From Escherichia coli (GTDB taxonomy: Bacteria; Pseudomonadota; Gammaproteobacteria; Enterobacterales; Enterobacteriaceae): a stretch of DNA of 64,000 nucleotides. Under the pieces are notes generated by a model, which was not told where the DNA came from, ran no database searches, and saw only the letters and a list, made by a program, of their open reading frames with translations. The stretch is taken from the NCBI RefSeq assembly GCF_003334255.1, contig NZ_QOWU01000013.1. One strand, given 5' to 3'. Below, piece after piece: positions 59,198 to 64,000 of the stretch; positions within the stretch are counted from its first letter, which is position 1, and each line of letters starts with the position of its first letter. Made by a program: the position numbers and the translations under genes.

Positions 59198-62100
59198 TAT
59201 GTCTTCAACAAATGCGCATCAAATAAAAAATAATGATCAAAACTCTTTATGTGGTCTGGGTGACAAAATACGCCGCCTGACCGCCGGAGTTTGTTTATTT
59301 ACACAAATTTTTTTCCCCGTCATGGCGACGGCACAAAATGTGGTACATGCTAAACCTCAGACGACAGTTTCATCTGCCCCCCCTCTAATAGAAAATAATA
59401 CTGTGCCTTACACGCTTGGTGCGCTGGAATCAGCGCAAAGCGTTGCTGATCGATTCGGTATTTCACTGGAGGAGCTTCGTCGTCTTAATCAGTTCCGTAC
59501 TTTTGCTCGCGGCTTTGATAACGTGCGCCAGGGTGAAGAGCTGGATGTTCCGGCAACAACCTTGCAGAAAAGTCATGAGCAACAAAATGCCGTACCGCCT
59601 GCGAATGGCGAAAACACGCTGGAGAATCAAATAGCCAGCACTTCGCAGCGAGTTGGCACCCTGCTTTCACAAGATATGAATAGTGAGCAGGCCAGCGGCA
59701 TGGCGCGTGGTTGGGCGTCTTCAGAAGCCTCAGGCGCGATGACTGATTGGTTAAATAACTTTGGCACTGCGAAAATCTCTCTGGGTGTGGATGAAGATTT
59801 CAGCCTGAAAAATTCGCAATTCGACTTCCTGCATCCGTGGTATGACACACCTGATTATCTGCTCTTCAGCCAGCATACCCTTCACCGAACAGACGATCGT
59901 ACCCAGATCAACACCGGTTTGGGCTGGCGTCATTTCACCCCCAGCTGGATGTCAGGCATCAACCTGTTTTTTGACCACGACCTGAGCCGCTATCACTCCC
60001 GCGCGGGTCTTGGCGCAGAATACTGGCGTGATTATCTGAAGTTGAGCAGCAACGCTTATATCGGCCTGACTGGCTGGCGTAGCGCACCGGAATTGGATAA
60101 TGACTACGAAGCCCGCCCGGCCAACGGCTGGGATTTTCGCGCGGAAGGCTGGTTACCAGCCTGGCCACAACTGGGTGGAAAACTGGTCTATGAACAATAC
60201 TATGGTGATGAAGTGGCGCTGTTTGACAAGAATGATCGCCAAAGTAATCCCCATGCTATTACCGCGGGCCTCAACTATACCCCCTTCCCGCTTCTGACTC
60301 TCAGTGCGGAACAGCGTCAGGGAAAACAAGGTGAAAATGACACACGTTTTGCCGTTGATCTAACCTGGCAACCCAGCAGTTCAATGCAGAAACAGCTTAA
60401 CCCGGACGAAGTGGCCGGACGGCGCAGTCTGGCCGGTAGTCGTTATGACCTGATTGATCGCAACAACAACATCGTTCTGGAATATCGCAAGAAAGAGCTG
60501 ATTCGCCTGAGTCTGCTGGATCCGGTGAAAGGAAAGTCTGGAGAAATAAAACCGCTGGTTTCCTCGCTACAGACCAAATATGCCCTGAAAGGCTATAACA
60601 TCGAAGCCGCTGCGCTGGAAGCTGCCGGAGGTAAAGTCAGCACGTCTGGAAAAGATATCACGGTTACGCTGCCAGGTTATCGCTTCACTAACACTCCAGA
60701 AACCGATAATACATGGTCGATAGACGTTACCGCCGAGGATGTAAAAGGGAACCTGTCACGGCATGAACAAAGCATGGTCGTCATTCAGGCTCCGACATTA
60801 AGCCAGAAAGATTCTCTGTTATCCGTTAATCCGCTAACCGTAGCTGCAGATAAAAAATCGACGACCACATTGACCGTTACTGCGCACGATTCCGACGGAA
60901 CTCCGGTGCCGGGGCTGGCGCTGCAAACCCGCAGTGAAGGCGTTCAGGATATCACCCTGTCTGACTGGACAGATAACGGTGATGGTAGTTACACACAGAT
61001 GCTGACCGCCGGAACGACATCAGGTTCAGTAACACTGACGCCGCAAATTAACGGTGAGAGTGCGGTAAAAGAATCCATTGTCGTTAATATCGTCCCTGTT
61101 GTCTCATCCCGCGACCATTCATCAATAACAATAGATAACGTATCGTATTATGCCGGAGACGACATCAAGGTTAGGGTGGAACTGAAAGACGACAGCAATC
61201 AACCGGTTGCATATCAAAAAGAGGAATTGGTAAAAGCCGTTACTGTCGAAAACAGCAAACCTGGCGCCACGATTGTCTGGCACGAAGAGCAGCCTGGCGT
61301 TTATACCGCGAATTATCCGGCCCATAAGCAAGGGACAGCACTAAGGGCACAACTTAGCCTTCACAACTGGAATGCTCCACTGCAATCGCATATTTATAAC
61401 ATTGAGGCAAACCAGAATAAGGCTCGCGTCGCCACATTATCAGCGACGAATAATGACGTTTACGCCGATAAAAAGACATTTAATACCCTCACGATCAACA
61501 TCACTGATGAGAGTGATAATCCCCTGACAAATCATCAGGTCACCTTTAAGAATGAAAAAGGAAGCGCGGAGTTTGTCGAACCGCCGCAGCAAAATACGGA
61601 TGCATATGGTGTTGCCACAATCAACATGGTAAGTCAGGTTGCGGAAGAAAATACGATTAGCGCCACGCTGCCAAATGGTTTCTCACAACGGATAATTGCG
61701 AAATTCGTTAGCGATTCGAGTACGCCAAAATTCAAACAACTGGTTGCCGATCCAGATACCATTATTGCTGGCAACAGCCAGGGCAGTACTCTGACCGCCA
61801 CCGTCACAGACTTTCATAACAACCCATTAAAAGATATGAAAGTGAATTTTGTGGCACCTGGTGGTTCGCAACTGGACAACACGACCGCCACAACAGACCA
61901 GTCCGGTATTGTGCGAGTGCACCTGACCAGTTCAAAAGCTGGTAGCTATTCCGTCGATGCCTCGCTTGAGGCGGATAAAAATATTCACCAGTCGGTCACG
62001 ATCACCGTGGTCCCAAACAGGGAACAATCGGTAATGACCTTAAATGCCGGGTCAGGCAGTGCGATCGCTAACAATACAAATACCGTTATCCTGACAGCCA

Positions 62101-64000
62101 GTGTGAAAGATGTTTATGGACACCCGTTGCCGGATGAGGATGTGAAATTTACCTTGCCAGCCTCTATGACCGGGAACTTCACGCTAAGTAGTGAAAGCGC
62201 CCGCACCGATGCAAACGGCGATGCCGTGGTCACATTGCGTGGCACAAAAGCGGGTGAGTTTACAGTTACGGCGACGCTGACCAGAAATAATACCGTTGCT
62301 CATCAGCAAGTCACTTTTATTGGGGATACAAACAGCGCGCAGCTCCAGCCGCTGACTGCCTCATTAAATACCATTGTTGCGGGTAACAGTACGGGGAGTA
62401 CCCTGACTGCAACGATCCTGGACGCTTACCAAAATCCGCTTAAAGACCAGCTGGTCACTTTCCAGAGTAACGATGTCACTCTAAGTGGAACAGAAGTCAC
62501 CACCAATACACTGGGTCAGGCGACGGTAACAATGACCAGCAATATTGCCGGGCAACATAACGTCGTGGTGAACCGGAAAGCGCAAGCCTCCGATAATAAA
62601 ACGTTTAGTTTATCAGTGCTGCCGGATGAAAGTTCGGCGAAGGTAATAAGTATAACCGGAGCCGAAAAAACGATAACGGTTGGCGAAAACATCACGCTAC
62701 GGATACTCGTCCAGGACGCGTTTAACAATGTAATAGCGGGTCAACGCGTCAGATTAAGTGCGCAGCCAACAGCTAACATTACGATAGGCGATACGGCTTA
62801 CACTGATAATAACGGTTACGCGTACGTTAACCTTCTCAGCACCCAGCCTGGGGTTTATCAGGTGACGGCAACGCTGGACAATAACAGTAGTAGTAAGGTT
62901 GACGTGAATGTGGCAAATGGCAAGCTCGAGTTAACATCATCGAAGCCAGAAACCACGGTCCATAACAGTGAAGGTATTACGCTGACCGCAACGGCGAGAA
63001 ATGCTCGGGATGAATTAATGCCTGGACAAATTATCACCTTTAGCGTAACGCCTGAAGGTGCAACGCTAAGCAATACAGGGGAAGTCCTTACTGACCAGTA
63101 TGGTCAGGCCAAAGTGACGCTGACCAGTGACAAAGTGAATGTCTATACCGTTACGGCCACAATGGGCAAAGATGTTCCCGTTCAGAGCCAGGTAACGGTT
63201 GCGGTTAAGGCAGATGCTAAAACGGCACATGTTGTGAGCGTCGTGGCCTCTCCTGACACCATCACCGCCGACGGCGTTGATAGCAGCACCATCACTTCAC
63301 GAGTAGAAGATGATTACGGATTCCCGGTTGAAGGTGTCGATGTTCGTTACGCCTTAGACACCAAAGGTCGCCCGGTAGTTAATATTCCAACTACGCGTAC
63401 CGATCAGTCCGGGCAAGTCACGGCGACAATAACCAGTACATTGGCAGAAACCTTAACGGTCAATGTGCAAGTTCCTGGTACAGCCAACCAATCCGCAACC
63501 ATTACCTTGATTGCCGACACGGCGGATGAAAGTAAGTCAATTTTGAAATCCGACGTTGGCACTCTGATGGCTGACTACCAGCATAGCGCGAAACTTACGC
63601 TAACATTGCAAGACAAGTACGGTAACCCGATAGTGACGTCTGATCATCTGGAATTTGTCCAGTCAGGTCCCTTCGTGAACTTTCTCAAGTTGAGTGATAT
63701 TGATTACAGCCAAAGAAATTATGGCGAGTACACCGTGACTGTCACTGGCGGAAAAGAGGGAACAGCGACTCTCATTCCCATGCTGAACGGGGTTCATCAG
63801 GCAAACTTAAGCGTATCGCTGAATCTCATCCGCTCGATAAAAGAAATGTCCGGTCATGTCACTGCAAACAACCATACCTTCTCCACGGCTAAATTCCCGA
63901 GCGAAGGTTTTGCAGGAGCGTATTACACACTCAACAATGATAACTTTGAAGCGGGTAAAACCGTTGATGATTATATGTTTTCAAGTTCACAGAGTTGGGT
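59198..64000 (+). CDS. inverse-autotransporter adhesin (intimin/invasin family): LysM, beta-barrel, tandem Big_1 Ig-like domains; 3' end beyond window
   Basis: ATG 59198 after GGAAGG RBS; open frame to the window end (over 1600 codons, hence absent from the stop-bounded ORF track); LysM-like LGALESAQSVADRFGISLEELRRLNQF, then repeated about 100-aa units of the form TLTATVTD...NPLKD...VTF. Confidence 0.8.

What the first reader, a model, noticed from the sequence alone, without database searches (positions are those of the whole stretch)
59198..64000. Giant inverse-autotransporter adhesin beginning where K-12 has kptA
After yjiJ I recall kptA/yjiH/yjiG in K-12. Here a LysM-containing intimin/invasin-family gene starts and stays open for more than 4.8 kb to the window edge, with many tandem Ig-like (Big_1) domains. 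Repetitive Ig arrays are recombinogenic and lengths vary between strains.
Basis: partly seen in the sequence, partly recalled or inferred. Interest (0 to 1): 0.5.

Follow-up and report, generated by a model that had tools for sequence, protein, structure and literature searches.

The report
Known E. coli adhesin gene iatD
The long open reading frame at the end of the window is the first 1,600 codons of iatD, an already described E. coli surface adhesin of the intimin/invasin (inverse autotransporter) family that about one complete genome in eight carries between yjiJ and kptA, so the finding is real but ordinary.

Summary
The DNA differs at only 2 of about 18,200 bases from E. coli strain G1/2. 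There the gene is annotated iatD: 5,241 bp, 1,746 aa, ending 439 bp beyond the window and 120 bp before an intact kptA. The window product is 98% identical, without gaps, to IatD of strain SMS-3-5. Goh et al. 2019 (PMC6714894) showed that protein to be surface-exposed and to promote biofilm when overexpressed.

Domains found here:
- a signal peptide;
- a YeeJ-type LysM stretch;
- an inverse-autotransporter β-barrel (Pfam E 2.6e-108);
- about ten diverged Big_1/Invasin_D3 Ig-like domains;
- an invasin D4–D5-like cap with a C-type lectin-like fold.

K-12 lacks the gene; its yjiJ and kptA are 12 bp apart. The implied repeat instability is not supported. The gene has no DNA repeats, its Ig domains share at most 38% identity, and its length is 5,241–5,242 bp in 20 of 21 full-length genomes sampled.

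Verdict: already known, low interest. As a side observation, iatD lies in a roughly 10.4-kb alternative haplotype with an espX6-like gene and yjiK/yjiJ alleles about 81% identical to K-12.

The parts
58989..59198 (+). AT-rich yjiJ-iatD intergenic region (GC 0.35), the presumed promoter region. It holds a Shine-Dalgarno-like GGAAGG at 59188-59193.
   Evidence: Sequence; GC. One weak sigma-70-like match lies at 59003-59032, but the number of such matches is no higher than in shuffled sequence. This region is absent from K-12.
59199..64000 (+). iatD coding sequence, codons 1-1600 of 1746, cut by the window edge. The natural stop would lie at window-equivalent 64437-64439.
   Evidence: Open frame. 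Differs from L001 iatD by 1 SNP. 98% aa identity with no gaps to SMS-3-5 IatD.
59199..59330 (+). Extended N-terminal signal peptide, aa 1-44: hydrophobic core at about 27-43, with a probable cleavage site after VMATA.
   Evidence: Hydropathy scan. The cleavage site is an inference from the A-x-A pattern. Goh et al. draw a signal sequence for IatD.
59406..59552 (+). Periplasmic LysM-type domain, about aa 70-118 (YTLGALESAQSVADRFGISLEELRRLNQFRTFARGFDNVRQGEELDVPA).
   Evidence: Pfam LysM is only marginal (i-E 0.06). A LysM structure, 4uz2, matches at E 0.008. The stretch is nearly identical to the LysM stretch of YeeJ, which scores just as weakly in Pfam yet was shown experimentally to bind peptidoglycan (PMC5595812).
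59640..60467 (+). Inverse-autotransporter β-barrel translocation domain, aa 148-423.
   Evidence: Pfam IAT_beta PF11924, E 2.6e-108, full model length. Matches the invasin barrel 4e1t at E 1.3e-80 and the intimin barrel 4e1s at E 5.8e-67 over aa 185-430.
60489..60806 (+). Post-barrel linker and first passenger module, aa 431-536. No Pfam hit; probably a D00-like Ig domain.
   Evidence: Inference only. The region is 79% identical to the equivalent part of YeeJ and lies between the barrel and the first Big_1 hit.
60807..63806 (+). Array of about ten diverged Ig-like (Big_1 / Invasin_D3) domains, aa 537-1536.
   Evidence: Pfam hits at 537-631, 745-836, 847-938, 946-1041, 1052-1135, 1164-1238, 1244-1333, 1346-1438 and 1443-1536, plus a weak hit at 640-714. 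Pairwise identity is at most 38%. No DNA repeats.
63888..64000 (+). Start of the invasin D4-like domain (aa 1564-1624), cut at aa 1600. The rest of D4 and the C-type lectin-like cap (to aa 1746) lie beyond the window.
   Evidence: Pfam Invasin_D4 E 7.9e-05. Alignment to invasin 1cwv D1-D5 at E 7.5e-25. AF2 model of aa 1501-1746 has pLDDT 93.3. It matches 1cwv (E 7e-13, TM 0.72), intimin 1f00 and true C-type lectin folds.
54213..58988 (+). Context: the left part of the haplotype block that carries iatD. It holds an espX6-like pentapeptide-repeat gene (54550-56643), a divergent yjiK (56864-57739) and a divergent yjiJ (57810-58988).

Best explanation
The ORF is the 5' 92% of iatD, which encodes the type Ve (inverse autotransporter) adhesin IatD. 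The mechanism below is inferred from family knowledge unless a step is marked as shown. The Sec system exports the protein using a long N-terminal signal peptide. In the periplasm, a YeeJ-type LysM domain binds peptidoglycan. The BAM-inserted 12-stranded β-barrel (about aa 185-430) anchors the protein in the outer membrane, and the C-terminal passenger is threaded out through it. The passenger is a rod of roughly eleven or twelve Ig-like modules. It ends in an invasin D4-D5-like superdomain whose tip has a C-type lectin-like fold, probably stapled by a Cys1660-Cys1742 disulfide. For the 98%-identical SMS-3-5 protein, Goh et al. 2019 showed surface exposure and strong biofilm promotion when it is overexpressed in K-12, with no autoaggregation and no binding to extracellular-matrix proteins. 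The natural ligand and the regulation are unknown. The gene is an accessory locus, present in 639 of 5,426 complete E. coli genomes, always between yjiJ and kptA.
For: Identity:
- The 6.2-kb query covering yjiJ and the window part of the gene matches many E. coli chromosomes at 100%, all annotated 'iatD: inverse autotransporter IatD'.
- There are 2 SNPs in 18.2 kb against strain G1/2, where the gene is intact at 5,241 bp / 1,746 aa.
- 1572/1600 residues are identical, without gaps, to the SMS-3-5 gene. That gene sits at the same locus and has the same size as the EcSMS35_4876 iatD that Goh et al. cloned.
- Its 90%-identity cluster has 1,685 members named IatD, invasin or adhesin.

Architecture:
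- IAT_beta at E 2.6e-108, and nine significant Big_1/Invasin_D3 domains plus Invasin_D4.
- Invasin and intimin barrels at E 1e-80 and 6e-67, and invasin D1-D5 at E 7.5e-25.
- The C-terminal model (pLDDT 93.3) matches invasin, intimin and C-type lectins.
- The mature protein has only two Cys, at 1660 and 1742. Both are conserved in at least 90% of 35 homologues. Cys1660 aligns with invasin Cys907, and Cys1742 lies 4 residues from the C-terminus, as invasin Cys982 does.
- The first 600 aa are 79% identical to YeeJ, including its experimentally validated LysM domain.

Function: surface localisation and biofilm data for IatD (PMC6714894).
Against: - The window stops at codon 1600, so intactness of the last 146 codons in this particular strain is inferred from near-identical genomes, not seen.
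- The Pfam LysM score is below significance.
- NCBIfam has no IatD-specific model. The best hit, the IatC N-terminal model, is far below its cut-off (1124 vs 2400 bits), so the name rests on near-identity, not on a profile.
- The published phenotype comes from IPTG overexpression in K-12. Native expression, regulation and ligand are untested.
Confidence: 0.95

Rival explanations
1. The gene is a decayed pseudogene in this strain, as it is in O157:H7, so the open frame seen in the window does not yield a functional adhesin.
For: In EDL933 and other O157:H7 genomes iatD spans 5,242 bp and is annotated as frameshifted. One extra base at nt 179 gives a stop at codon 66. One strain carries IS2 inside iatD (H14). 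The last 439 bp are not in the window.
Against: The window frame is open across nt 179 and for all 1,600 codons. Genomes differing by 0-2 SNPs have the intact 1,746-aa gene. 12 of 13 full-length cluster members compared with it are 1,746 aa.
Confidence: 0.03
2. It is another E. coli inverse autotransporter (YeeJ, IatC, FdeC/EaeH, intimin or SinH), misplaced or recombined, rather than IatD.
For: The first 600 aa are 79% identical to YeeJ. In iatD-negative genomes, nt 199-1819 match yeeJ at about 77%. The best NCBIfam hit is the IatC N-terminal model.
Against: All those NCBIfam scores are far below their curated cut-offs. Beyond about aa 600 the similarity to YeeJ collapses. Full-length identity of 98% is to IatD of SMS-3-5, at the same yjiJ-kptA locus. 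yeeJ sits elsewhere in the genome, next to a tRNA-Asn gene.
Confidence: 0.01
3. IatD works chiefly as an invasin-like host-cell ligand, using its D4-D5-like cap to bind integrin or another specific receptor, and biofilm formation is an overexpression side effect.
For: Invasin is the closest solved structure for the cap. The disulfide cysteines are conserved. Invasin Asp911, the integrin-binding residue according to my knowledge of the invasin literature (Hamburger et al. 1999), aligns with Asn1664, which is followed by Asp1665. Goh et al. raise the possibility of a specific receptor.
Against: Identity to invasin in the cap is only about 23%. The Asp911 position itself is Asn. Goh et al. saw no binding to extracellular-matrix proteins. 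No cell-binding or invasion data exist.
Confidence: 0.15

Closest known systems
IatD of E. coli SMS-3-5 (EcSMS35_4876; Goh et al. 2019, mSphere, PMC6714894)
   Same: Same locus (yjiJ-iatD-kptA) and same length (5,241 bp). 98% aa identity without gaps over the 1,600 residues in the window. Same domain order.
   Different: 28 substitutions in 1,600 residues. The window lacks the last 146 codons.
YeeJ (E. coli inverse autotransporter; Martinez-Gil et al. 2017, PMC5595812)
   Same: 79% identity over signal peptide, LysM, β-barrel and first Ig module. Both end in a C-type lectin-type cap and both promote biofilm.
   Different: Different chromosomal locus. The passenger diverges after about aa 600. 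YeeJ is longer (2,359 aa in SMS-3-5) and exists as two length variants.
Invasin of Yersinia pseudotuberculosis (PDB 4e1t barrel, 1cwv D1-D5)
   Same: Barrel matches at E 1.3e-80. The passenger end aligns to D1-D5 at E 7.5e-25. The model of the cap superposes at TM 0.72. The disulfide cysteines are conserved.
   Different: Invasin has 4 Ig-like domains plus the cap, and to my knowledge no LysM. IatD has about 11-12 Ig modules. Only about 23% identity in the cap. Integrin binding is untested for IatD.
Intimin (EPEC/EHEC Eae; PDB 4e1s, 1f00)
   Same: LysM, barrel, Ig rod and lectin-like tip in the same order. Barrel matches at E 5.8e-67; the cap matches 1f00 at E 9e-07.
   Different: The NCBIfam intimin model scores 364 bits against a cut-off of 1,400. 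The gene is not in the LEE and no Tir partner is adjacent. The passenger is much longer.

Membership tests
IatD orthologue group (E. coli) | Near-identity over the full length to the characterised SMS-3-5 IatD | tested here: met
   1572/1600 identical with 0 gaps. The cluster at 90% identity is named IatD.
IatD orthologue group (E. coli) | Conserved chromosomal position | tested here: met
   The order yjiJ-iatD-kptA is found in the window/G1/2, SMS-3-5 and EDL933. [quoted passage not shown]
IatD orthologue group (E. coli) | Intact 1,746-aa product | tested here: inconclusive
   The window ends at codon 1600. The gene is intact in a genome differing by 2 SNPs over 18.2 kb.
Type Ve secretion / inverse autotransporters | N-terminal 12-stranded β-barrel of the IAT_beta family preceding the passenger | tested here: met
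   PF11924 E 2.6e-108 at aa 148-423, with the passenger C-terminal to it. Solved invasin and intimin barrels match at E 1e-80 and 6e-67.
Type Ve secretion / inverse autotransporters | Sec signal peptide | tested here: inconclusive
   A hydrophobic core at aa 27-43 followed by ATA-Q was found by hydropathy only. No signal-peptide predictor was available.
Type Ve secretion / inverse autotransporters | Passenger of tandem bacterial Ig-like (Big_1) domains | tested here: met
   Nine significant Big_1/Invasin_D3 matches and one weak one.
Type Ve secretion / inverse autotransporters | Surface exposure of the passenger | not testable with these tools
   Shown by immunofluorescence for SMS-3-5 IatD (PMC6714894).
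LysM-bearing IATs (intimin, YeeJ) | Periplasmic LysM domain between signal peptide and barrel | tested here: inconclusive
   Pfam LysM i-E 0.06. PDB LysM 4uz2 at E 0.008. The stretch is near-identical to the YeeJ LysM, which scores equally weakly in Pfam but binds peptidoglycan experimentally. Homology to a validated LysM is therefore strong, but the profile evidence is weak.
Invasin/intimin C-terminal cap (Ig-like + C-type lectin-like superdomain) | C-type lectin-like fold at the C-terminus with a conserved disulfide pair | tested here: met
   Tested on the full-length orthologue, because this part lies beyond the window. The AF2 model has pLDDT 93.3. Foldseek finds 1cwv at E 7e-13, 1f00 at E 9e-07, and snake-venom and CLEC12A C-type lectin domains with TM 0.52-0.59 normalised to the target. 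Cys1660 and Cys1742 are at least 90% conserved, and Cys1660 aligns with invasin Cys907. Pfam itself gives no Intimin_C hit.
Intimin (Eae) | Score above the curated NCBIfam intimin cut-off | tested here: not met
   363.6 bits against a cut-off of 1,400.
IatC | Score above the NCBIfam Ve_IatC_Nterm cut-off | tested here: not met
   1,124 bits against a cut-off of 2,400.

The most novel reading that the evidence does not exclude
iatD is not a simple insertion. It is one gene of a roughly 10.4-kb, deeply diverged alternative haplotype: an espX6-like effector gene, yjiK and yjiJ alleles about 81% identical to K-12, and iatD. The block has sharp borders and is inherited as a unit in about 12% of complete E. 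coli genomes. On this reading it was imported from, or maintained since, a lineage well outside present-day E. coli diversity. Its adhesin would recognise a specific, still unknown host receptor through the invasin-like cap, so the block would act as a small colonisation islet.
Probability: 0.2. Interest if true: 0.35.

Novelty: already known. Interest (0 to 1): 0.08.

Why it matters
It matters little as a discovery. iatD was named, surveyed, cloned and phenotyped in 2019, and RefSeq annotates it by name. The check is useful mainly because it closes the finding. The suspected repeat-driven length variation is absent. The remaining open questions are experimental: the native ligand of the invasin-like cap, how expression is controlled, and whether IatD contributes to colonisation. 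The linked divergent yjiK/yjiJ alleles and the espX6-like gene are a modest population-genomics curiosity.

Tried and rejected
The true frame starts at 59199.
- TRF and the direct-repeat search were run to test the 'recombinogenic array' idea. They found no tandem repeats, and only two chance 21-25-nt pairs.
- NCBIfam has no IatD model, and every related model is below its cut-off.
- Pfam gave no significant LysM hit and no Intimin_C hit. LysM was therefore tested through YeeJ identity. The lectin cap was tested by a representative search, an alignment, an AF2 model and Foldseek.
- The PDB search with the N-terminal 142 aa was topped by designed repeat proteins (dTor), which I discount as low-complexity artefacts.
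- The promoter and terminator scans gave no more sites than shuffled sequence.
- Two guesses at the SMS-3-5 coordinates missed the gene and landed in the leuX island. The third guess found it.
- Loci fetched by accession were not exported to the Python sandbox, so the K-12 sequence was pasted in by hand.
- I did not run the metagenome or genome-collection scans. The gene's identity was already settled, and their cost was not justified.
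Full report
**1. The observation**

Between 58900 and 64000 only one of the six reading frames is open. It has a stop at 59088-59090 and then none up to the last complete codon at 63998. The other two forward frames contain 102 and 133 stops, and the longest reverse-strand ORF is 104 aa.

The first ATG is at 59199, five bases after a GGAAGG Shine-Dalgarno-like motif at 59188-59193. The window therefore holds 1,600 uninterrupted codons, which is far beyond chance.

**2. What it is**

A 6.2-kb query covering yjiJ and the ORF matches many complete E. coli chromosomes at 100%. In every listed case it lies under the annotation 'iatD: inverse autotransporter IatD' next to 'yjiJ: MFS transporter'.

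Strain G1/2 (locus L001) differs from the window at only 2 positions over the shared 18.2 kb. There iatD is 5,241 bp (1,746 aa). It ends 439 bp beyond the window edge and is followed 120 bp later by kptA on the opposite strand.

The name comes from Goh et al. 2019 (PMC6714894), who defined iatD as EcSMS35_4876 of strain SMS-3-5, also 5,241 bp. I located that gene between kptA and yjiJ in SMS-3-5. The window product is 1572/1600 (98%) identical to it, with no gaps. The protein belongs to a 90%-identity cluster of 1,685 sequences, named IatD, invasin or adhesin.

**3. Anatomy**

- **Barrel.** Pfam finds the inverse-autotransporter β-domain at aa 148-423 (E 2.6e-108, full model length). Aa 185-430 match the solved β-barrels of invasin (4e1t, E 1.3e-80) and intimin (4e1s, E 5.8e-67).
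- **Ig-like rod.** Nine significant Big_1/Invasin_D3 domains lie between aa 537 and 1536, with a weak tenth at 640-714.
- **D4-like domain.** An Invasin_D4 match covers aa 1564-1624.
- **Passenger end.** Aa 1258-1713 align to invasin D1-D5 (1cwv, E 7.5e-25).
- **Signal peptide.** A hydrophobic core at aa 27-43 is followed by ATA-Q. The cleavage site is inferred.

*LysM.* Pfam gives only a marginal hit (i-E 0.06), and a solved LysM protein (4uz2) matches at E 0.008. However, the first 600 residues are 79% identical to YeeJ, and the 49-residue LysM stretch is nearly identical. YeeJ's own LysM scores just as poorly in Pfam (0.068). Yet deleting it abolishes peptidoglycan binding (PMC5595812). I accept the LysM assignment through this homology and record the profile evidence as weak.

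*C-type lectin cap.* This part lies beyond the window, and Pfam gives no Intimin_C hit. I searched 1.84 billion representative proteins with the last 246 aa and found 285 relatives at E ≤ 0.001. I aligned 35 of them and predicted the structure, which has pLDDT 93.3 and pTM 0.84. Foldseek returns invasin 1cwv (E 7e-13, TM 0.72) and intimin 1f00. For the last ~125 residues it also returns genuine C-type lectin-like domains, from snake-venom proteins and CLEC12A, at TM 0.52-0.59 normalised to the target.

The only two cysteines of the mature protein, C1660 and C1742, are at least 90% conserved in the alignment. C1660 aligns with invasin Cys907. C1742 lies four residues from the C-terminus, as invasin Cys982 does. 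This points to the same disulfide, which is an inference.

**4. Mechanism**

From established knowledge of type Ve secretion, the steps are:

1. Sec export.
2. LysM anchoring to peptidoglycan.
3. BAM-dependent barrel insertion.
4. Hairpin export of a C-terminal passenger, which forms an Ig-domain rod with an adhesive tip.

For IatD itself, Goh et al. showed surface exposure by immunofluorescence. They also showed strong biofilm formation on overexpression in K-12, in microtitre plates and flow chambers, without autoaggregation or binding to extracellular-matrix proteins. Ligand and regulation remain unknown. The 210-bp upstream region has a GC content of 0.35 against 0.49 for the gene. Consensus promoter matches there are no more frequent than in shuffled sequence.

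**5. Comparison with K-12 and the 'variable repeat' idea**

In MG1655 the convergent yjiJ and kptA stop codons are 12 bp apart. However, iatD is interposed here, and kptA is retained.

iatD is present, with at least 80% of its length covered, in 639 of 5,426 complete genomes. The suggestion that the Ig array is recombinogenic and variable in length fails for this gene:

- TRF finds nothing, and the direct-repeat search finds only two chance 21-25-nt pairs.
- The Ig domains are at most 38% identical to one another.
- Of the 21 full-length matches sampled across the identity range, 20 span 5,241-5,242 bp. The remaining one spans 5,167 bp in two aligned pieces and was not examined further.
- 12 of 13 full-length cluster members compared with it are exactly 1,746 aa.

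The one exception, at 1,786 aa, is a perfect 40-residue tandem duplication after residue 1222, not a gain of a domain. Goh et al. likewise found no evidence of repeat-number variation in IatD.

Decay does occur. O157:H7 genomes carry one extra base at nt 179, giving a stop at codon 66, and are annotated as frameshifted. One strain has IS2 inside the gene. The window copy is open through that site.

**6. Context**

BLAST of 4.3 kb of K-12 against the locus gives five segments:

| Window segment | Content | Relation to K-12 |
|---|---|---|
| up to 54212 | yjiM, yjiL, ytiA | 96.6% identical |
| 54213-56905 | espX6-like gene | absent from K-12 |
| 56906-58966 | yjiK, yjiJ | 80.7% identical |
| 58967 to ~64592 | iatD and flanks | absent from K-12 |
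| from ~64593 | kptA onward | 98.6% identical |

The 54213-56905 segment holds a 697-aa pentapeptide-repeat ORF with GC 0.35. Its EDL933 counterpart is annotated as the T3SS effector EspX6.

Across genomes, yjiJ identity to the window allele is strictly bimodal. It is at least 95% in 637 genomes and about 82% in 4,690, with none in between. The espX6-like segment occurs in 639 genomes, the same number as iatD. So iatD belongs to a roughly 10.4-kb alternative haplotype with sharp borders.

The right border lies inside the 3' end of kptA, which is 585 bp here and 555 bp in K-12. Unlike iatD, the espX6-like gene does vary in length between strains; the matched spans range from 2,621 to 2,883 bp.

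**7. Verdict**

It is a gene that is already named, surveyed and partly characterised, with nothing unusual in this copy. Novelty: already known. Interest: low. The haplotype structure around it is the only aspect I did not find described in the papers I read, and I followed it up only partly.

Noticed in passing
window 54213-64000 (continues to about 64592 by homology with L001): iatD is part of a roughly 10.4-kb alternative haplotype with sharp borders. The flanks are 96.6% and 98.6% identical to K-12, but the yjiK-yjiJ segment inside is only 80.7% identical. Two segments, the espX6-like gene and iatD, have no K-12 counterpart. The origin of such a diverged block is unexplained.
   Followed up: partly
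window 57810-58988 (yjiJ): yjiJ is strictly dimorphic in 5,327 complete E. coli genomes. 637 carry the window allele (at least 95% identity) and 4,690 carry an allele about 82% identical, with none in between. The window allele occurs in almost the same number of genomes as iatD (639).
   Followed up: partly
window 54550-56643: A 697-aa pentapeptide-repeat ORF with GC 0.35, absent from K-12. Its O157:H7 counterpart is annotated 'T3SS effector pentapeptide repeat protein EspX6'. It is present in 639 genomes. Unlike iatD, it varies in length between strains, with matched spans of 2,621 to 2,883 bp.
   Followed up: partly
L001 18761-19345 (kptA, just beyond the window): The right breakpoint of the block lies inside the 3' end of kptA. 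The gene is 585 bp here and 555 bp in K-12, and its last 10 codons are encoded by haplotype-specific DNA.
   Followed up: partly
L003 3001-8949 (E. coli O157:H7 EDL933): In O157:H7 both iatD and the adjacent kptA are annotated as frameshifted pseudogenes. In iatD one extra base at nt 179 gives a stop at codon 66.
   Followed up: partly
protein P0008 (IatD cluster member, 1,786 aa): A rare IatD variant with a perfect 40-residue (120-bp) tandem duplication after residue 1222, inside the seventh Ig-like domain. It was seen on 4 contigs.
   Followed up: yes
L001 18655-18740 (iatD-kptA intergenic, beyond the window): An 11-bp-stem hairpin (AAGGATACCCT...AGGGTATCCTT) is followed by a REP-like palindrome (CCTGATGCGCTGCGCTTATCAGG) between the convergent iatD and kptA genes. 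It was not picked up by the terminator scan.
   Followed up: no
NZ_CP047277.1 (strain N18-04097), hit H14: In this strain iatD is split by an IS2 insertion.
   Followed up: no
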